In this document: piece by piece, positions 33,563 to 40,520 of the stretch
Layout: each line of letters opens with the position of its first letter
Numbering within the stretch: position 1 is the stretch's first letter
The notes under the pieces: generated by a model
Databases searched by the model: none
Seen by the model: only the letters and a program-made list of their open reading frames with translations
What the model was told of the DNA's origin: nothing
From: a virus
Direction: 5' to 3' (one strand)
DNA length: 64,000 bases
IMG/VR virus record: IMGVR_UViG_3300029268_000006
Location: 1 to 64,000 of that record
Made by a program: the position numbers and the translations under genes

Positions 33563-34558
33563 ATGATATTAGATGAATTTGTTTTAATGTATTGGAATAA
33601 TTATGATAAAAAATATTATGTTGATAAAGGATATGTTTTCACAAAAAGATTTGATAAATTTGAAGTAAATATTAAAGATTTAATGTTGTGTAGTAACTTG
33701 AAGATAAATGTTAAATGCGATATTTGTGGTAAAGAAAAACTATTATCATATCGTAAATATTTAAAAAATATGAATAATGGTGATTATTATTCTTGTTCTC
33801 AGAAATGTTCTCATAATAAATCTAAACAAACTAGTTTAAAAAATTATGGAGTGGAACATTATTTACAATCTGATATTGGTATAAAAAGAATACAAAATAC
33901 ATGTTTGGAAAGATATGGATTTGAAAATGTATCTAAAAACAATGAAATAAAAAAAAGGAAAAAACAAACTTGTTTAAAAAATTATGGAACTGAATATCCA
34001 AGTCAATCGAAAGAAATACAAGAAAGATATAAACAAACTTGTTTAAAAAAATATGGTTGCGAATGGCCTTGGTTAAATATAGAAGTGAAAGAAAAAGTTG
34101 AAAATACTATGTTAAAAAAATATGGAACAAAAAACCCAACACAAAACATAAATATAATGAATAGTATAATTCAAACACAAATAGATAAATATGGTGAAAT
34201 TTGGAAAAATCATGTTCCTAGATATAATCCAAATTCAATAATGTATTTAGATTTAATATCAAAAAAATTAAATATACCAATTCAGCATGCTTTAAATGGT
34301 GGTGAAAAGAAATTCATAAAATATTGGATAGATGGATATATTGATAAATATAATATATGTATTGAATGGGATGAAGAATGTCATAATTTAGAAAATGATA
34401 AAAAAAGAGATGAATATTTAAAAGATAATTTTAATTGTAAAATGATAAGAATTAGACAAAAAACATTTCTTAAAAATATAGATATTGAAATTGAAAAAAT
34501 AGTTGATGAAATAAATGATTATATTTTATCATTAAAATCGTATGAAAAGAAAAAATAA
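33563..34558 (+). CDS. Homing endonuclease-like (PD-(D/E)XK) with CL.KYG repeats
   Basis: YWIDGY...ICIEWDE..H nuclease motif and repeated TCL.KYG. Confidence 0.8.
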   Translation: MILDEFVLMYWNNYDKKYYVDKGYVFTKRFDKFEVNIKDLMLCSNLKINVKCDICGKEKLLSYRKYLKNMNNGDYYSCSQKCSHNKSKQTSLKNYGVEHYLQSDIGIKRIQNTCLERYGFENVSKNNEIKKRKKQTCLKNYGTEYPSQSKEIQERYKQTCLKKYGCEWPWLNIEVKEKVENTMLKKYGTKNPTQNINIMNSIIQTQIDKYGEIWKNHVPRYNPNSIMYLDLISKKLNIPIQHALNGGEKKFIKYWIDGYIDKYNICIEWDEECHNLENDKKRDEYLKDNFNCKMIRIRQKTFLKNIDIEIEKIVDEINDYILSLKSYEKKK

Positions 34559-34590
34559 AAAAGGGATGAAAATAAATTTCATCCCCTTTT
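34557..34590. terminator. Bidirectional terminator
   Basis: AAAAGGGATGAAA-ATAAA-TTTCATCCCCTTTT between convergent genes. Confidence 0.8.
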
Positions 34591-34644
34591 GTTCATTTTT
34601 TTCATCTGTTCATTGATAATGAACAGTAGATTAAAATGAACAGT

Positions 34645-36252
34645 TTAGATTTCAACTGCTTCAATCTTGTGAATCAAAGCCTGACGATCTTGTTCCAACA
34701 TTTTCATTAAATCGAAAACTTTATCTGAAAATCCAGCCAAAGCGTAAACTTTGTTTTCTGGGAATTGTAAAGTTCCGTAACCTTTAAGGTCAATAGAATA
34801 GATATGAGACTGACATTTATACTTTTTACAGTATTCTTTGAAAGTTGTTGTTGGTGCGTGATATCCAACCCAACCTTGTTCATCAGATAAAATAATTATT
34901 CTATCGTAAGCTTTATTGGCTTTTTGAAAGATACTATGGAAATTAGTACCAGCACAAGCGAACTTGTAAATGTTTGTAATAGTCATCAAACTATCAGATG
35001 GGTTATAGTTTTTGTATTCTGCATGATCATCAAATCTCATCAAATCACAACCATTACGTTTTGCGATAGCGGCTGCGAATTGTGCACCAGCTTCAGCACA
35101 ACTAATTGTACTTTTTGCTACTTTATTTGATGTCATAGAACCAGATGTATCTAAAACAACCAATGTTTCACCATCAAATTTCGGAATATTATTAAGTGAA
35201 ATTTCAGTAGCTTCGTTGATGGCAGTTAGAACTTTTCTGTATTTAGAATCCGAAGTACCAAGACTTTGTAATTCTTTGTAAGCTACAAGAAATCTGAATG
35301 GTAAAACCAATGATTTCTTAATTAACTTTTCATCAGTTAAAAGTTCACAAGCGACATCAATCATTTCCGGTGCTTGTTCAACAATGTTTCTTAGGTTACG
35401 AAGTAAAGCGAAGTAACCGATTTTACGTTCACTAAGAAGCTTTGTCCAAGCGTCTTTTTTAAGGTCTTGTTTTTCATCTTCATTGTTAGCTATTTGACCA
35501 GCTTTTGACAATTCAGATTCCCAAGTGTCTTTACTACGAAGTAAATCAATTACAAGTGCTTCAAGAGCGTGAATTTTGATAGTTCCACCTTCTTGTGATT
35601 TAACCCAATTAAGTTTCTTTTCAATTTCTTTCTTATCTTCAGCTTTCTTTTTCAAAGATAATTTCTTGTTAAGTATGTCAATGTATTCTTGACGATTAAC
35701 AGTTACCAAAAATTTATCACCCTGTGTTGGTACTGGGTGTACCAAGTTGGCAATATCAACTAATTTGAAGTCTTTACCTTCACCTCTCCATTTTCCAAGT
35801 TGGTATGCATCGAATCTTGAAATAGCTTCAGCGAAGCCTTTTTTCATCGAATTGGTAATTTTGTTGTCTTTCTTTTTCATGTAGTAAGCCAAGATTTCCA
35901 TCATATCATCCGGTCTACGGACAATTTTGTTATAGAAATTTTTTGCCCAAGGTAAGTTGGACAAATATTTAGCCAATTCAGCAGCTGTAATATGTGATAT
36001 GGATCTCATACCAAATTCATTACGGGCATAAAGTGCAGATTTAGCTACAAAATCCGGTTGTGTCTTACCAATAAGATCAATCAATCTGTTATTGGTTTGT
36101 TCTTCAGTTTCGTAAAAAGAATTCTGTACAAAGGATGTTAACAAAATAGAAACTAATTCTAATTTATTTGATTCTTTGTAGGCTTCACCACCTGCTAAGT
36201 TAACAGTTTTTTCTGCTTTGTAAGCAACTTTTTTTTCATTGAATTTTGACAT
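34645..36252 (-). CDS. rsr: Ro60 / TROVE-domain RNA-binding protein with vWA domain
   Basis: NLAGGEAY, ALYARNEFGMRS, FDAYQLGKWR, ALLRNLRNI, LPFRF and VVLDTSGSM (MIDAS). Confidence 0.95.
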   Translation of the reverse strand: MSKFNEKKVAYKAEKTVNLAGGEAYKESNKLELVSILLTSFVQNSFYETEEQTNNRLIDLIGKTQPDFVAKSALYARNEFGMRSISHITAAELAKYLSNLPWAKNFYNKIVRRPDDMMEILAYYMKKKDNKITNSMKKGFAEAISRFDAYQLGKWRGEGKDFKLVDIANLVHPVPTQGDKFLVTVNRQEYIDILNKKLSLKKKAEDKKEIEKKLNWVKSQEGGTIKIHALEALVIDLLRSKDTWESELSKAGQIANNEDEKQDLKKDAWTKLLSERKIGYFALLRNLRNIVEQAPEMIDVACELLTDEKLIKKSLVLPFRFLVAYKELQSLGTSDSKYRKVLTAINEATEISLNNIPKFDGETLVVLDTSGSMTSNKVAKSTISCAEAGAQFAAAIAKRNGCDLMRFDDHAEYKNYNPSDSLMTITNIYKFACAGTNFHSIFQKANKAYDRIIILSDEQGWVGYHAPTTTFKEYCKKYKCQSHIYSIDLKGYGTLQFPENKVYALAGFSDKVFDLMKMLEQDRQALIHKIEAVEI

Positions 36253-36300
36253 AATAATCCTTTCTTTTTTATTTTTTGTTTGTTTGTAATTTAAAGTTAA

Positions 36301-36342
36301 AAAAAAAAGGGACTATCGAAATAAATTTCAGTAGCCCCTTTT
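36301..36342 (-). terminator. Rho-independent terminator between the RNA cluster and Ro60
   Basis: Minus strand GGGGCUA...UAGUCCC followed by U8. Confidence 0.75.
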
Positions 36343-36375
36343 GGTGACATTCATTTCTGAATGTCTTAATCTATA

Positions 36376-36612
36376 GATGAAGAAAACGATAAGTGAGATG
36401 TGAAATTTAGGTTTTCACTAAAATGAAAGATTTATCATCTTTCATATTCAACCCCGATTTTGGGTTAATTGGAACCTTGACTTTTTGGATGTCAAATCCT
36501 CGGTTTTAGGTAGAACCGAACCACCTGTTATCACCTTATTGGTGATAACGTTTCTGATGCCCGAAGGCTTCTTCCATAATTGTCGAAGTAACACTCAATC
36601 TTACTATCATCA
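36376..36612 (-). ncRNA. Y-RNA-like RNA 3 (multi-hairpin, ~240 nt)
   Basis: 5'/3' ends pair; UACUUCG at 36584-36590; seven internal hairpins including two perfect 9-bp stems and a cUUCGg loop. Confidence 0.75.
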
Positions 36613-36621
36613 GTAAATATT

Positions 36622-36688
36622 ATAAGGAGTAAATCTAAAATAACTTTTTTTCATTTCCTACGAAGTAAGTTATTTTATCACTACCTTT
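36622..36688 (-). ncRNA. Y-RNA-like RNA 2 (minimal stem-loop)
   Basis: UAAAAUAACU/AGUUAUUUUA 10-bp helix plus AAGG/CCUU bulged helix; UACUUCG at 36661-36667. Confidence 0.65.
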
Positions 36689-36757
36689 TTTAAAAATCAT
36701 TAAAATTAAGAACGTTTGTTTTATTTATATTTCAAAAAAACATAAAAGTTTAAAAAA

Positions 36758-36865
36758 TTGTAAAGATATTTTTTTAAGAGTTTTGATAAAAAGCGACTTT
36801 TTGGTGCTTTCTATTGGAGTCGAACCAATTAGAACCGAAGTATCTCTTAAAATTGCTATTACAAC
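36758..36865 (-). ncRNA. Y-RNA-like RNA 1 with tRNA-like T-arm (YrlA-like)
   Basis: UUGUAA/UUACAA and UUUUAAGAG/CUCUUAAAA terminal helices; UACUUCG at 36836-36842; AUUGG-UUCGACU-CCAAU T-arm. Confidence 0.75.
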
Positions 36866-36955
36866 ATTTATTTTATATATTTGTCAAAAAAAGTCTATTT
36901 TTTCCATTTTTGATAAATATACATCTTTTTTATTAAGAAAAAAATAAAAAGTTTA

Positions 36956-39382
36956 TTAAATATTATATTTTTTTGGCCAAAATTGTTTTTTTTGTGAATT
37001 TGGCCAAAATAATGGATTTTTATTTTCATCATCATTTTTTCTAAATGGGTCAGGTTCTCTCCAAGGATTTCGTTTAAATATTTCGTTTGAATCATCTTCT
37101 CTCCAAGGATTATTTGGTTTAATAGAATTTATTTGTGACATCACATCAACTTTATTTATGAATTGTTTTCTAGCTAATCTGAATGATTTGTAGTTTATTG
37201 TATTTTCAAGTGGTGCAGTTTCTAAGAAATTTTTAACAATTTCTTTTTCTATATCTGTTGCATTAAAGTCAATATAAGTGTCAATTATATTTTTCCAATC
37301 AATATGACTATAAATAGTTGCCAAGTTTATAATTGACATCACACAGTCATCAGTACCACTTTGAGATTTATATGTCACTTCACCATTTGCCAATTCTTTT
37401 TTGGAGAATGAACTTAATTCTATTATGGTTCCACTGTGATGTAATACCATCGCGTCTTTTTTGATACAATCTTGAAAATCTTTTATCATTAGTTTCTTGC
37501 CTTTTTCTCCACTTTTCACAAGGAAACCAACAGTTAGGTAAGTATCAGTTTCATTTTGTTTGTAACGAACAAATACCGAATCACCATAATTGTTGATATC
37601 ATTAAATACATGTTTCATATTATCTAGAAGTCTATCACCCAGATTTTTATTTTTTTCAAGAACTATTTTTACTTTTTCAGAATCGAATAATTCAAATCCT
37701 ATTAAATATAATATATGTGATATTTCATTTGCGTTATAAATATTATTTTGAAAAACACCAATTTGTTCCAATTTAAATAAATCATATTTGCTTTCATACA
37801 TTAGTCTTTTTCTATTTATAATATCTTTATCTTTCATCATTAATCTAAAAATATTTATCACAGTGTAATTTTGTGCAAGTCCTTCACCCATGTCAATTCC
37901 TATAAATATATTATAATTTTTTACTTGTCTAATATCAAATAGATCCGGTCTATTTTTTATCCATTTTAAATCTGTATAAGGAAATTTTAATTTATTTTCA
38001 AATTGTGGTATTTCTTTATATTCAAATGGTGTTTCATTATTAGTTAAACTTTCAAATATAATACTATCAAATAATAAATTTTGATCTGTTATAAATTGAA
38101 GTCCGTATTCTTGTTTGAATTTATCTTCACCACCTATAAGATTTGTTTCTTCTTCTTCCCAATTAGAAATATATGCAATTTCAGTAAAAGGAATTTCACT
38201 TTCAAATTCCATATTGTCATCTCTTGTTTCTAAATTTGTTGCAATTCTTAATGAACGGATACTGGAAATATCAGATTGAAGTGATGGGGTTATTTCATCA
38301 TCTTCGTAAAATTTAATATGATGTATAGCTATACCATCAAGTACCTTATCATAAAGTTTATAACCCAATTCATTTCTCAAATAATTCAAAACATAACCTT
38401 CAGTTAATCCGTGTTTTTTGAGTTTGTCGTCAATGAATTTTATTTTAGTATCCCTCCTACCTTTTATTTGATACCAATAAACTTTAAGTGCTTTATATGG
38501 GTTTTTATGTGGATCACCTTCTGGTAATTCGGCATCTCTTAATAATTCAAAGAATAAATTTCTACCGTCCGGGGTTGATGTAATAATAATTTTTGAATTT
38601 GTAATTGATGATACAGTTGGTACAACGGATGAATAATAAGCTCTAATTATATTATCTGGAATTTTAGCAAACTCATCGAGATATAGTAAATCTATTGTAA
38701 AACCAATGGCCGGTTCTTTGGATCTATTTTGTGTTTGTATTCTACTACCATTTTCAAAAGATAGTGATCTTTCGTTCCAGTTGTTTATACCGGCCTTTAA
38801 GTAGAATGGTAATAATTTATATATGTCTTTTATTTTTCTTATAATTTCTTTAACAGTATTAGATACGTTAGCAACAACCATAACCCCTTTATCTTTATTA
38901 AATAAAACAGTCCACAACATTACAATTGCAGCACTAACTGTATTTAAACTTAAAATATCATTTGTATAATAACTATGTTCATTGGATTGAATTGATAAAT
39001 CGAACATAGAAACTTTATAGTTTTGTTTAATAATAGATTTTATTTTTGATGGACCCCTTTTGGTTAAAACTATATCATCGTGTGTTAAATCTTTAACAAA
39101 TTTAATTATATGATTTTCACAAAAAACACCATGAACATCCGCACAATTTAATTTAATACCATTTTCCAATTTTAGTGTATAAAATGTATATGGTTGTGTT
39201 AAATTAATTTCTTCAATTGGAACAAAACCATAATCTGTTTCGACTAATAAATTTTCTAATGGTAAAAAATTTAATATTTTTTTTGTTTCATCATTTTCAT
39301 CTAAATCTATGTTTCTATATTCATAATTTTCTAATTTTTCAATTAAAAAATATATAATATTTCTTAATATTTTCTTAAACAT
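36956..39382 (-). CDS. terL: Large terminase C-terminal part with N-terminal C-intein
   Basis: Walker B LYLDEFA, ITSTPDG and RuvC IGIDMGEG; first 147 aa are intein-like, ending ILSLN/T. Confidence 0.9.
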   Translation of the reverse strand: MFKKILRNIIYFLIEKLENYEYRNIDLDENDETKKILNFLPLENLLVETDYGFVPIEEINLTQPYTFYTLKLENGIKLNCADVHGVFCENHIIKFVKDLTHDDIVLTKRGPSKIKSIIKQNYKVSMFDLSIQSNEHSYYTNDILSLNTVSAAIVMLWTVLFNKDKGVMVVANVSNTVKEIIRKIKDIYKLLPFYLKAGINNWNERSLSFENGSRIQTQNRSKEPAIGFTIDLLYLDEFAKIPDNIIRAYYSSVVPTVSSITNSKIIITSTPDGRNLFFELLRDAELPEGDPHKNPYKALKVYWYQIKGRRDTKIKFIDDKLKKHGLTEGYVLNYLRNELGYKLYDKVLDGIAIHHIKFYEDDEITPSLQSDISSIRSLRIATNLETRDDNMEFESEIPFTEIAYISNWEEEETNLIGGEDKFKQEYGLQFITDQNLLFDSIIFESLTNNETPFEYKEIPQFENKLKFPYTDLKWIKNRPDLFDIRQVKNYNIFIGIDMGEGLAQNYTVINIFRLMMKDKDIINRKRLMYESKYDLFKLEQIGVFQNNIYNANEISHILYLIGFELFDSEKVKIVLEKNKNLGDRLLDNMKHVFNDINNYGDSVFVRYKQNETDTYLTVGFLVKSGEKGKKLMIKDFQDCIKKDAMVLHHSGTIIELSSFSKKELANGEVTYKSQSGTDDCVMSIINLATIYSHIDWKNIIDTYIDFNATDIEKEIVKNFLETAPLENTINYKSFRLARKQFINKVDVMSQINSIKPNNPWREDDSNEIFKRNPWREPDPFRKNDDENKNPLFWPNSQKKQFWPKKYNI
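38942..39382 (-). mobile_element. Split intein C-fragment (TerL), 147 aa
   Basis: Contains block B (CADVH) and blocks F/G (MFDLS...YYTNDILSLN); +1 residue is Thr. Confidence 0.85.
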
Positions 39383-40520
39383 TTTTATTTTTTATTAATT
39401 TTAAAATAATAGATTTTATATATTTATTATTATTTTTCCATTCTTTTTCCCATACATGTATTAAATTGATATTTTTATTTTTACAATTATTTGTTTTATC
39501 ATTATGATAATTTTCATTTTTATAGATATTACTATGCCAATAATCACCGTTATATTCAAATGCTAAATTTAAATCTGGTAAATAAATGTCTAATTCTTTA
39601 CCATTTAATATTTTTCTATCATTTTTAATTATTACCCCTTTATAATTTTCTTTTATGAATTTAAATAATTTTCTTTCACCGTCTGATGTTAAAGAATGTT
39701 CTGGATAACATATTGTACATGTTGTTATGTTATGTGACAACCTATTATGAAATAAATTAATATTTATTTCATAATTATGTCCTTCTTCACAACAACAGAA
39801 ATATTTTTTATTTTCGTAATCTATTTTTTTAATAAATAAATATTTAGATAACATTTTTTTATTATAATATTTTTGTGTTTTTTCTTTATGTTCTGGTAAT
39901 TGTGATACATTTTCAATATTATATTTTGTTTTACATGTTTTTTTAATTTTTATAATGTTATTGTAATTTTCATTATCATATTTTTTGTTTTTTGTATTTT
40001 TCGCTTTTTCAACAAAAAATGAATTTTGTGCTGGTCTATCACAATTGTATTTTTCATTATTTGTTTTTATAGATTTTTGTAAAATTTCTTTATTTTGTTG
40101 TGGATAGTCACAATCATATTTTTCATTATTTGTTAATTTAATTTTATTTTTAATTTCTTCATTTTGAAAAACATTTTCAAATCCATAAATTTCCAAATTT
40201 GTTTTTTTACATTTATTTCTATTATTATAAGTTTTATTATTATATTTTTTTTGACATGTTAATTTGTTTTTAATGGATGAACATTTGTGACAAGTATATA
40301 AATTATATTTATTAAAATTATTATTATAACTTTGATAAGATATAATTTTTTCACATCCACAAATATCACAAATTCCTGTTATTTTAACATGTGATTTTAA
40401 TGAGACGTGTTCTATTTTTATTAAAATTTCATCATTTAAATTACAAACATAACCAAAATTTCTAAATTTTTTAATTGTTTTGTCTGCAATTTTGATGTTT
40501 ACTTCTTTTTCTTTTATCAT
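39375..40520 (-). CDS. Free-standing homing endonuclease-like gene inside terL
   Basis: ELDIYLPDLNLAFEYNGDYWHS; stop overlaps the terL-C start. Confidence 0.85.
   Translation of the reverse strand: MIKEKEVNIKIADKTIKKFRNFGYVCNLNDEILIKIEHVSLKSHVKITGICDICGCEKIISYQSYNNNFNKYNLYTCHKCSSIKNKLTCQKKYNNKTYNNRNKCKKTNLEIYGFENVFQNEEIKNKIKLTNNEKYDCDYPQQNKEILQKSIKTNNEKYNCDRPAQNSFFVEKAKNTKNKKYDNENYNNIIKIKKTCKTKYNIENVSQLPEHKEKTQKYYNKKMLSKYLFIKKIDYENKKYFCCCEEGHNYEININLFHNRLSHNITTCTICYPEHSLTSDGERKLFKFIKENYKGVIIKNDRKILNGKELDIYLPDLNLAFEYNGDYWHSNIYKNENYHNDKTNNCKNKNINLIHVWEKEWKNNNKYIKSIILKLIKNKNV

What the first reader, a model, noticed from the sequence alone, without database searches (positions are those of the whole stretch)
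34645..36865. Phage Ro60 with a cluster of three architecturally different Y-RNA-like RNAs
Seen: upstream of and co-oriented with Ro60 are three elements, each with paired 5'/3' ends and the identical heptamer UACUUCG right after the 5' strand (36836-42, 36661-67, 36584-90). Their payload domains differ: T-arm module, bare loop, and seven-hairpin module. Promoter-like AAATATATA (~36875-83) and TATAAATA (36722-29) precede them. Known: Y RNAs bind Ro60 through a terminal stem and tether it to effectors through a second module, and Ro60/YrlA pairs occur in some phages. Inference: a modular RNP system with one protein and interchangeable RNA adaptors. This is the best candidate for a new system here.
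Basis: partly seen in the sequence, partly recalled or inferred. Interest (0 to 1): 0.9.

Follow-up and report, generated by a model that had tools for sequence, protein, structure and literature searches.

The report
Phage Ro60 with three Y RNAs
An uncultured freshwater phage encodes the ring-shaped RNA-binding protein Ro60 and, just upstream, three small partner RNAs (Y RNAs) that share one conserved handle but carry different cargo domains; this is a new variant of a known protein-RNA system, not a new system.

Summary
Three co-oriented RNAs lie upstream of a true Ro60 gene (TROVE + Ro60-vWA). Each is closed by its own stem and carries UACUUCG.

All three have UAG(C/U)(A/G)A exactly 16 nt before UACUUCG, inside a bulged two-part stem.

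A covariance model built only from relatives finds elements 2 and 1 and nothing else in the 132-kb record. It finds 162 same-strand copies in front of Ro60 in 84 related loci, with strong covariation.

These are Y RNAs of a large lineage that Rfam's YrlA model misses.
- Element 1: a YrlA-like tRNA mimic with no D arm.
- Element 2: a YrlB-like hairpin.
- Element 3: two hairpins plus, probably, four abutting H-type pseudoknots rather than seven plain hairpins.

Short contigs from four RNA libraries cover element 3.

Phage Ro60 with upstream Y RNAs that bind host PNPase is already published (Thermus phage phiLo, 2025). Modular Y RNAs are the accepted model. This scan has already noted pseudoknot cargo in Y-like RNAs of other giant phages.

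Verdict: a real, new variant of a known kind, of moderate interest.

The parts
34645..36252 (-). Ro60 (Rsr) gene, 535 aa
   Evidence: Pfam TROVE 2.8e-20 and vWA_Ro60 8.7e-11. The closest solved structure is Thermus phage phiLo Ro60, 9KOP/9L5Y, E 2.7e-28. More than 4000 homologues were found.
34558..34590 (-). Intrinsic terminator after Ro60
   Evidence: 14-bp stem followed by a T run.
36874..36910 (-). Conserved AT-rich block (AAAATGGAAAAAA..GAC..TTTTTT..AATATATAA) upstream of Y RNA 1; promoter-like, untested
   Evidence: Present in all seven phage-clade loci. The sigma-70 scan is not above shuffles.
36752..36864 (-). Y RNA 1 (YrlA-like, no D arm). Basal stem UUGUAA/UUACAA, UAGCAA 36858-36853, upper stem, UACUUCG 36842-36836, module, 3' strand 36780-36758, U tail to 36752
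   Evidence: R1 model hit of 34.4 bits, E 2e-6 in the 64-kb window. Eight of 24 pairs show compensatory changes in seven loci.
36813..36829 (-). T-arm mimic AUUGG-UUCGACU-CCAAU in Y RNA 1
   Evidence: 5-bp stem and 7-nt UUCRANY loop with a G-C closing pair. Invariant in the clade; the outer pair switches A-U to U-A in two loci.
36788..36812 (-). Acceptor-stem-like hairpin AGAAAGC...GCUUUUU directly after the T arm
   Evidence: RNAfold. The distal part covaries across loci: GGU-GAAA-ACC, GC-GAAA-GC, CGC-GAAA-GCG.
36700..36750 (-). Conserved block AAACTTTTAT..TTGAAATATAAATAAAAC..GTTCTTAATTTTAATGA between Y RNA 1 and 2 (includes TATAAATA 36729-36722); promoter-like, untested
   Evidence: Conserved in six of seven phage-clade loci.
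36624..36687 (-). Y RNA 2 (YrlB-like hairpin). AAGG/CCUU basal stem, UAGUGA 36683-36678, 9-bp upper stem, UACUUCG 36667-36661, 22-nt A-rich loop
   Evidence: R1 hit of 56.8 bits, E 2e-12. The upper stem covaries across loci: UAAC/GUUA, GAG/CUC, AAGG/CCUU. Fold z = -3.3.
36376..36611 (-). Y RNA 3 (large-module Y RNA, 236 nt). GAUGA/UCAUC basal stem, UAGUAA 36606-36601, UACUUCG 36590-36584, about 190-nt module
   Evidence: Fold z = -7.2. The same handle is seen in six loci. Contigs from four RNA libraries cover it.
36559..36568 (-). Hairpin 1, GCC-UUCG-GGC
   Evidence: RNAfold. The stem sequence differs in L001, L035 and L092 while the hairpin is kept.
36527..36549 (-). Hairpin 2, 9-bp stem
   Evidence: RNAfold. 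Kept with changed sequence in relatives.
36500..36525 (-). Predicted pseudoknot d (S1 GGU/ACC, S2 UCGGU/ACCGA)
   Evidence: S1 is GUG/CAC in L001, AUG/CAU in L035 and GGUU/AACC in L092.
36477..36499 (-). Predicted pseudoknot e (S1 GGAU/AUCC, S2 UUGAC/GUCAA, L3 AAAAA)
   Evidence: S1 is GGUU/AACC in L001 and UGG/CCA in L092. S2 is CUGGC/GUCAG in L092.
36454..36476 (-). Predicted pseudoknot f (S1 GGUU/AACC, S2 CCAAU/AUCGG with one A.C mismatch)
   Evidence: Variants in RNA-library contigs turn the A.C mismatch into G-C. S2 is CUGAC/GUCAG in L035.
36400..36453 (-). Predicted pseudoknot g (S1 GGU/ACC, S2 GUGAAA/UUUCAC) with a nested hairpin at 36425-36443
   Evidence: The nested hairpin changes sequence completely between loci. 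S1 and S2 are invariant within this subgroup; L010 and L090 have GGUC/GACC or GGU/ACC with GAGAAAA/UUUUCUC.
36295..36365 (-). Small hairpin (36346-36365), then an intrinsic terminator (stem 36305-36342, U run to about 36295) between the Y RNA cluster and Ro60
   Evidence: RNAfold. A terminator at the same place is present in L001, L035, L090 and L092.

Best explanation
The 700-nt gap between the terminase and Ro60 genes encodes three Y RNAs, the dedicated RNA partners of the phage's own Ro60.

Each RNA has the same handle:
- a basal stem;
- a bulged, partly non-canonical helix that carries UAG(C/U)(A/G)A on the 5' strand and a U-rich run on the 3' strand. This is the lineage's version of the GNCGAA/CGAA Ro60-binding motif;
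- an 8-9-bp upper stem;
- the single-stranded UACUUCG that opens the cargo domain.

Ro60 most likely grips the bulged helix. The cargo points away from it and decides what the particle touches.
- Y RNA 1 shows a T arm stacked on an acceptor-like hairpin, a tRNA 'top half' with no D arm.
- Y RNA 2 is a plain hairpin with an A-rich loop, the YrlB type. It may simply occupy or gate Ro60.
- Y RNA 3 carries two hairpins and a rod of four abutting H-type pseudoknots.

By analogy with Deinococcus, Salmonella and Thermus phage phiLo, the particles most likely couple Ro60 to host 3'-5' exoribonuclease (PNPase) or to tRNA-recognising enzymes during infection.

Shown here (by computation): synteny, the conserved handle, covariation of the stems, and presence of Y RNA 3 in RNA libraries.
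Inferred: Ro60 binding, the pseudoknot rod and the partners.
For: Ro60 identity.

Handle in the window: the same spacing of UAGYRA and UACUUCG in all three elements. 200 distinct relatives give the consensus (G)GUAGYGA-N10-(GRGU)UACUUCR.

Model search: model R1, built from 40 relatives without the window, hits element 2 (56.8 bits, E 2e-12) and element 1 (34.4 bits, E 2e-6). It hits nothing else in the 132-kb record. All 162 hits in 84 loci lie on the Ro60 strand.

Covariation over 125 distinct sequences: 83% of cells paired against 61% in shuffles; 535 double-change cells against 168; upper stem 94.6% paired; every slid control is far lower.

Link to known Y RNAs: relatives with a full T/acceptor/D module match Rfam YrlA at 32-48 bits.

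Phage clade: the same three RNAs are present with compensatory changes.

Pseudoknots:
- 25 units in six RNAs keep S1 complementarity through GGU/ACC, GGAU/AUCC, GUG/CAC, AUG/CAU, UGG/CCA, GGG/CCC and GGUC/GACC.
- 16 of 19 hairpins have an S1, against 3.1 +/- 1.4 after shuffling.
- The three central units abut without a spacer in W, L001 and L035.

RNA libraries: contigs of 151-368 nt from four metatranscriptomes of three studies cover 36335-36640 at about 95-98% identity. The three variants that fall in module stems keep or restore pairing.

Published precedent: PMC4201824 and PMC12135203.
Against: - No binding, Northern or end-mapping data exist. RNA-library contigs can contain DNA, and the runs were chosen with this very stretch.
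- None of the window's copies has the canonical CGAA; they read GCAA, GUGA and GUAA.
- Rfam YrlA does not match any window element even at E = 10.
- Element 3 is not recovered whole by the model, because the insertion is too long.
- The pseudoknot S1 helices are only 3-4 bp, and 15 of 25 are the same GGU(U)/(A)ACC. When upstream segments are permuted among hairpins, 11.4 +/- 1.4 of 19 still pair. So most of the signal is a constant motif rather than covariation. Only six element-3 sequences are available.
Confidence: 0.72

Rival explanations
1. Element 3's module is a string of simple hairpins. On this view the recurrent GGU before each stem and ACC in each loop are sequence motifs, for example for a protein, and not base pairs.
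For: The RNAfold MFE shows plain hairpins. Fifteen of 25 S1 helices are the same GGU(U)/(A)ACC. Permuting upstream segments among hairpins still gives 11.4 of 19 with an S1.
Against: Seven units have other S1 sequences and all stay complementary: GGAU/AUCC, GUG/CAC, AUG/CAU, UGG/CCA twice, GGG/CCC, GGUC/GACC. Loop 3 is A-rich and 2-7 nt long, and units abut exactly, as in known H-type pseudoknot rods.
Confidence: 0.28
2. The elements act in cis as a leader or attenuator of the Ro60 mRNA, for instance through Ro60 autoregulation at the terminator, rather than as free trans-acting RNAs.
For: They lie in the 5' region on the same strand. A strong terminator stands between them and the start codon.
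Against: Each element is closed by its own stem, and element 1 ends in a U run. Related loci hold one to five or more such units. Known Y RNAs are cut from precursors next to rsr (PMC4201824). Contigs of 255-259 nt from RNA libraries match element 3 alone. The two roles are not mutually exclusive.
Confidence: 0.1
3. The RNAs work without Ro60, for example as decoys for host tRNA-targeting or RNA-degrading enzymes, and are merely linked to the gene.
For: The T-arm mimic could be recognised by tRNA enzymes on its own. Earlier scan notes describe tRNA-mimic RNAs with partners other than Ro60 (unchecked).
Against: The handle is found in front of Ro60, on the Ro60 strand, in 84 of the loci searched and nowhere else in the 132-kb record. 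Its bulged helix matches the type of site that Ro60 binds in solved and biochemical work (PMC12135203).
Confidence: 0.08

Closest known systems
Thermus phage phiLo Ro60 with Yrl1/Yrl2 (PMC12135203; PDB 9KOP, 9L5Y)
   Same: A phage-encoded Ro60 with Y-like RNAs directly upstream on the same strand, built as stem, bulge, stem. It is the closest solved protein (E 2.7e-28). A RYPER-like complex with host PNPase has been shown for it.
   Different: phiLo has two RNAs with a CGAA bulge. This locus has three RNAs with a UAGYRA...UACUUCG handle, one tRNA-top-half cargo and one roughly 190-nt pseudoknot cargo. No biochemistry exists here.
Bacterial YrlA (Rfam RF02553; Chen et al. 2014, PMC4201824)
   Same: Encoded beside rsr and closed by a long stem. 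The cargo runs in the order T arm, then acceptor-like hairpin. There is a 5'-strand G.CGA-type motif and a YUAY-like UUAC at the start of the cargo. Relatives of this lineage score 32-48 bits.
   Different: Element 1 has no D arm and no Rfam match. The whole lineage lies below the gathering score of 69 bits. The handle has a different spacing and an added invariant UACUUCR.
YrlB / Yrn2-type short Y RNAs (PMC4201824)
   Same: Element 2 is a second Y RNA at the same locus and folds as one long hairpin.
   Different: Its loop is A-rich with a conserved GAAAAAA, not pyrimidine-rich.
Tandem H-type pseudoknot rods: tmRNA PK2-PK4 and the tobamovirus upstream pseudoknot domain (from general knowledge, not tested here)
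   Same: Three to four short H-type pseudoknots abut and would stack into one quasi-continuous helix. The third loops are A-rich.
   Different: There is no sequence relation and no tag reading frame. Here the rod is the cargo of a Ro60 handle.

Membership tests
Ro60/Rsr (TROVE) protein | TROVE HEAT-repeat ring plus a C-terminal vWA domain | tested here: met
   PF05731 at 73 bits and PF25045 at 42.5 bits, both above their cut-offs. PDB Ro60 chains match.
Y RNA (Ro60 partner RNA) | Encoded within a few kb of Ro60, on the same strand | tested here: met
   The elements lie 124-612 nt upstream on the same strand. All 162 model hits in 84 loci are on the Ro60 strand.
Y RNA (Ro60 partner RNA) | The 5' and 3' ends pair into a long stem interrupted by a conserved bulge or internal loop | tested here: met
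   On A5, the upper stem is 94.6% paired with double changes at all 8 pairs. The basal stem shows double changes at 4 of 4 pairs. The middle helix has one position that never pairs.
Y RNA (Ro60 partner RNA) | Ro60-binding motif on the 5' strand (GGUCCGA in animals; GNCGAAN0-1G / CGAA in bacteria and phage) | tested here: inconclusive
   The lineage consensus UAGCGA(A/U) contains GCGA. The window copies read UAGCAA, UAGUGA and UAGUAA.
Y RNA (Ro60 partner RNA) | Physical binding to Ro60 and Ro60-dependent stability | not testable with these tools
   This needs RIP or EMSA. The complex predictor takes proteins only.
Y RNA (Ro60 partner RNA) | Expressed as a discrete small RNA | tested here: inconclusive
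   Contigs from four RNA libraries cover element 3. Contigs show neither ends nor strand and may derive from DNA.
YrlA (Rfam RF02553) | Match to the covariance model at the gathering score of 69 bits | tested here: not met
   No hit in the window at gathering or at E = 10. Relatives reach 32-48 bits.
YrlA (Rfam RF02553) | tRNA-like module with a T arm, an acceptor-like stem and a D arm | tested here: not met
   The T arm and acceptor-like hairpin are present. No D arm exists: only 7 nt lie between the hairpin and the 3' strand. The same holds in all seven phage-clade loci.
H-type pseudoknot | Loop nucleotides of a hairpin pair with the segment just 5' of it, supported by covariation | tested here: inconclusive
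   25 units were found; S1 takes 9 sequence types and is always complementary. The constant GGU/ACC type dominates, and the permutation control is high.

The most novel reading that the evidence does not exclude
Y RNA 3 represents a class of Ro60 partner RNA whose cargo is not a tRNA mimic. Instead it is a rigid rod of four to five coaxial H-type pseudoknots, conserved in architecture but not in sequence across the phage clade.

Such a rod would give phage Ro60 a distinct partner. One possibility is the S1/KH domains of host exoribonucleases or ribosomal protein S1. Another is that the rod acts as a nuclease-proof spacer.

Together with the D-arm-less T-arm RNA, the locus would carry on separate Y RNAs the same two kinds of structural part that tmRNA combines, a tRNA top half and a pseudoknot array.
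Probability: 0.35. Interest if true: 0.65.

Novelty: new variant of a known kind. Interest (0 to 1): 0.5.

Why it matters
Y RNAs remain poorly understood. In bacteria essentially one cargo type, the tRNA mimic, has been studied in any depth.

This locus belongs to a very large Ro60 clade whose Y RNAs are invisible to Rfam. The clade spans freshwater phages, jumbo phages and MAGs labelled Verrucomicrobiales, Saprospiraceae, Anaerolineaceae and others. It has a sharply defined handle and at least three cargo classes, among them a probable pseudoknot rod.

The result gives three things:
- a ready covariance model for annotating hundreds of Y RNAs;
- defined mutations for Ro60-binding tests (the UAGYRA bulge versus UACUUCG);
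- a natural set of one protein with three cargos, suited to asking what Y RNA modules recruit during phage infection.

It does not reveal a new kind of system.

Tried and rejected
- Rfam: nothing at gathering score over the 64-kb window. At E = 10 over 36200-37000 only chance hits appeared, with no YrlA, Y_RNA or tRNA. ARAGORN found no tRNA or tmRNA in the window.
The contigs of the closest Ro60 proteins P0002-P0011 could therefore be reached only through the search for related loci.
- A 16-nt pattern scan of viral contigs for element 3's 5' end gave 73 loci, but only the five contigs already known carry the RNA.
- Model R1 cannot span element 3's 190-nt insertion. With filters off it finds only the 5' half, at 12 bits and with a wrong partner.
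- RNAalifold on the MAFFT alignment of element 2 chose a local GGUAG/UUACU pairing instead of the covarying long-range stem. I treat that as an alignment artefact or a possible alternative conformer.
- A generic pseudoknot-chain score (216 against 68 +/- 17 in shuffles) also counts ordinary hairpins, so I do not use it as specific evidence.
- Pfam and PHROGs on ten neighbouring ORFs showed homing endonucleases, a hydrolase and a split polymerase-like or nucleotidyltransferase gene. They showed no clear RNA-repair genes.
- Read laying: the rest of 34400-37400 (Ro60 ORF, elements 1-2, terminase end) has almost no cover in the four RNA-library runs. With contigs this proves nothing and is not used as evidence.
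- Host assignment from Ro60 relatives failed. The nearest genomic relatives, at 40-49% identity, come from several phyla.
- Two review papers (PMC10870794, PMC6542706) and the supplements of Chen 2014 are not held.
Full report
**What is there**

The window is part of a 132-kb uncultured virus record. Runs that hold this DNA are labelled lake and freshwater metagenomes.

The ORF 34645-36252(-) is a genuine Ro60: Pfam TROVE 73 bits and Ro60-type vWA 42.5 bits. Its closest solved relative is the Ro60 of Thermus phage phiLo (9KOP/9L5Y, E 2.7e-28).

Upstream lies a terminase large-subunit gene that ends at 36956. The 700 nt between the two genes are non-coding.

TACTTCG stands at the three stated places on the Ro60 strand. 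The window has 11 copies against 2.4 expected, and 0 of 100 shuffles reach 11. Four further copies lie inside the Ro60 ORF in different reading frames. They are absent from the 79%-identical homologue L001, so I take them as chance or codon usage.

**The shared signature is a full handle**

In all three elements, UAG(C/U)(A/G)A begins exactly 16 nt before UACUUCG: 36858/36842, 36683/36667 and 36606/36590.

Each RNA is built in this order:
- basal stem;
- UAGYRA opposite a U-rich 3' segment;
- 8-9-bp upper stem;
- UACUUCG;
- cargo;
- return strands.

Boundaries: Y RNA 1 is 36864-36758 with a U run to 36752. Y RNA 2 is 36687-36624. Y RNA 3 is 36611-36376. A small hairpin and a strong intrinsic terminator (36342-36295) follow, before the Ro60 start.

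**Comparative evidence**

Ro60 homologues number in the thousands. I fetched 166 loci from viral and metagenome contigs.
- TACTTCR occurs at 1.69 per kb in the 1 kb upstream of Ro60 on its strand, against 0.20 per kb elsewhere. Most loci have two or three copies.
- Two hundred distinct contexts give the consensus (G)GUAGYGA-N10-(GRGU)UACUUCR.

From 40 short, hairpin-type relatives I built covariance model R1; no window sequence was included.
- In the 64-kb window it finds Y RNA 2 (56.8 bits, E 2e-12) and Y RNA 1 (34.4 bits, E 2e-6), with nothing else significant. The same holds for the whole 132-kb record.
- Over 84 loci it gives 162 hits, all on the Ro60 strand. Per locus there are one (28 loci), two (26), three (12), four (6) or five (2) hits. 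This is a lower bound, because large-cargo RNAs are missed.
- On 125 distinct aligned sequences the structure is 83% paired against 61% in shuffles, with 535 double-change cells against 168. Every slid control is far lower. The upper stem is 94.6% paired. The middle helix contains one position that never pairs, plus a bulge. That is the kind of bulged helix Ro60 recognises (as cited in PMC12135203).
- The same core sits upstream of Ro60 in MAGs labelled Verrucomicrobiales, Anaerolineaceae and others.

**Relation to known Y RNAs**

Chen et al. 2014 (PMC4201824) describe these features:
- YrlA RNAs lie beside rsr in 254 bacteria and 22 phages.
- A GNCGAAN0-1G motif sits on the 5' strand.
- A YUAY motif opens the cargo.
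- The module mimics tRNA, with T arm, acceptor-like stem and D arm.
- At least one further, hairpin-type Y RNA exists per species.

Members of the present lineage that have a full T/acceptor/D module match Rfam YrlA at 32-48 bits (E 1e-3 to 6e-8). They always fall below the gathering score of 69.

So this is a divergent Y RNA lineage that Rfam does not capture. Its UAGCGA(A/U) plausibly corresponds to GNCGAA, and the UUAC of U-UACUUCR to YUAY. Both equivalences are inferences.

A phage Ro60 that binds two upstream phage-encoded Y-like RNAs and forms ternary complexes with host PNPase has been shown for Thermus phage phiLo (PMC12135203).

**The three cargos**

Six related phage loci (Ro60 63-82% identical) carry the same RNAs. 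L008 lacks the third.

*Y RNA 1.*
- It has a T-arm mimic, AUUGG-UUCGACU-CCAAU. The loop fits UUCRANY, and the outer pair switches A-U to U-A in two loci.
- An acceptor-like hairpin follows immediately. Its tip covaries: GGU-GAAA-ACC, GC-GAAA-GC, CGC-GAAA-GCG.
- Only 7 nt then remain before the 3' strand, so no D arm exists.
- The handle stems covary: 8 of 24 pairs show compensatory changes.
- T-arm RNAs without a D arm also occur in a few other loci. Several of these carry GG right after UACUUC, while none of the 24 RNAs with both a T loop and a D arm (by regex) does. I note only as an idea that this GG could replace the D-loop G18-G19.

*Y RNA 2.*
- It is a 64-nt hairpin.
- Its upper stem changes from UAAC/GUUA to GAG/CUC or AAGG/CCUU in relatives.
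- The A-rich 3' half of its loop is conserved.

*Y RNA 3.*
- It folds far better than shuffles (z = -7.2).
- After two simple hairpins, each further hairpin is preceded by 3-4 nt complementary to the 5' part of its own loop and is followed by an A-rich stretch. This is the H-type pseudoknot pattern.
- In the window, L001 and L035, three such units abut without a spacer. A fourth encloses a variable nested hairpin.
- I curated 25 units in the six RNAs. All S1 helices are complementary. The types are GGU/ACC (10), GGUU/AACC (5), GG/CC (3), UGG/CCA (2), and one each of GGAU/AUCC, GUG/CAC, AUG/CAU, GGG/CCC and GGUC/GACC. S2 sequences differ freely.
- Sixteen of 19 hairpins have an S1 of at least 3 bp, against 3.1 +/- 1.4 after shuffling. 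When upstream segments are permuted among hairpins, 11.4 +/- 1.4 still pair. Much of the signal is therefore a constant motif, and I put the pseudoknot reading at about 0.7.
- L010 and L090 have quite different module sequences but the same architecture.

**Expression**

Four metatranscriptome runs from three studies hold short contigs that lie on Y RNA 3:
- 259 nt on 36393-36640;
- 368 nt on 36391-36640, at depth 11.5;
- 255 nt on 36335-36586;
- two of 151 nt.

Identity is about 95-98%. Fifteen variant positions were listed. The three that fall in module stems keep or restore pairing (A-U to G.U; the A.C mismatch of pseudoknot f to G-C; C-G to U.G). Nine lie in loops or linkers of the module.

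Contigs cannot show ends or strand. RNA libraries can contain DNA, and the runs were selected with this stretch. This is supportive evidence, not proof.

**Mechanism**

Most likely Ro60 binds the bulged UAGYRA helix of each RNA, and the cargo addresses or gates the particle. Candidate partners are host PNPase or other S1/KH-domain nucleases and tRNA-recognising enzymes, by analogy with the Deinococcus/Salmonella RYPER complex and phiLo. These steps are inferred.

The Y RNA cluster ends in its own terminator. Conserved AT-rich blocks precede Y RNA 1 and Y RNA 2, so the RNAs are probably made from one or two phage promoters and trimmed to the closing stems.

**Novelty and verdict**

The 'new system' claim is not supported. 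The concept, the phage setting and the upstream arrangement are all published, and multi-RNA clusters are common in this clade.

What appears new:
- the defined handle of a large lineage that is not annotated in Rfam;
- the D-arm-less tRNA top-half cargo;
- the probable pseudoknot-rod cargo.

Earlier notes of this scan (unchecked AI notes) already report tandem or triple pseudoknot cargo in Y-like RNAs beside Ro60 of other giant phages, and handle-sharing RNA arrays beside phage Ro60 genes. I reached the pseudoknot reading before seeing them, but they are not independent proof.

Noticed in passing
L099-L126 (e.g. L104:2189-2420): Jumbo-phage contigs of 90-480 kb, with Ro60 about 50% identical, carry a different large-cargo Y RNA. 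It has a conserved handle built on the same UAGCGA-N10-UACUUCG core and a conserved 165-230-nt module. A short hairpin-type Y RNA lies next to it.
   Followed up: partly
window 36700-36750 and 36874-36960; same places in L001, L010, L035, L090, L092: An AAACTTTT box followed by an ATATAA-type box recurs upstream of Y RNA 1 and of Y RNA 2, and is conserved across the phage clade. It may be a phage-specific promoter. It does not fit the sigma-70 scan.
   Followed up: partly
window 35251-35543 (-): Four more TACTTCG copies lie inside the Ro60 ORF in three reading frames (two are TTA CTT CGT = LLR). They are not conserved in the 79%-identical L001 gene, so they are probably chance or codon usage.
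   Followed up: yes
L066, L084, L076, L045: Some metagenome loci hold four to five or more model hits in a row upstream of Ro60. L017 has a true tRNA gene (2019-2093) between Y RNAs.
   Followed up: no
window 36956-39382 (-): The terminase large-subunit ORF is 808 aa and has a weak intein-splicing-domain signal. DUF7487 homing-endonuclease genes flank the Ro60 cassette (33563-34558 and 39375-40520).
   Followed up: no
whole record G000: CheckV rates the 132-kb record as only 19% complete. The only nucleotide match among deposited phages is a 635-kb uncultured phage (LR745206.1, 68% identity over parts of Ro60). The virus may therefore be very large.
   Followed up: no
element 2 alignment A3; family consensus: The 5' GGUAG of the handle is complementary both to the 3' strand (ACUCC) and to the internal UUACU of UUACUUCG. 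RNAalifold picked the local pairing. This could be an alternative conformer or a coincidence.
   Followed up: no
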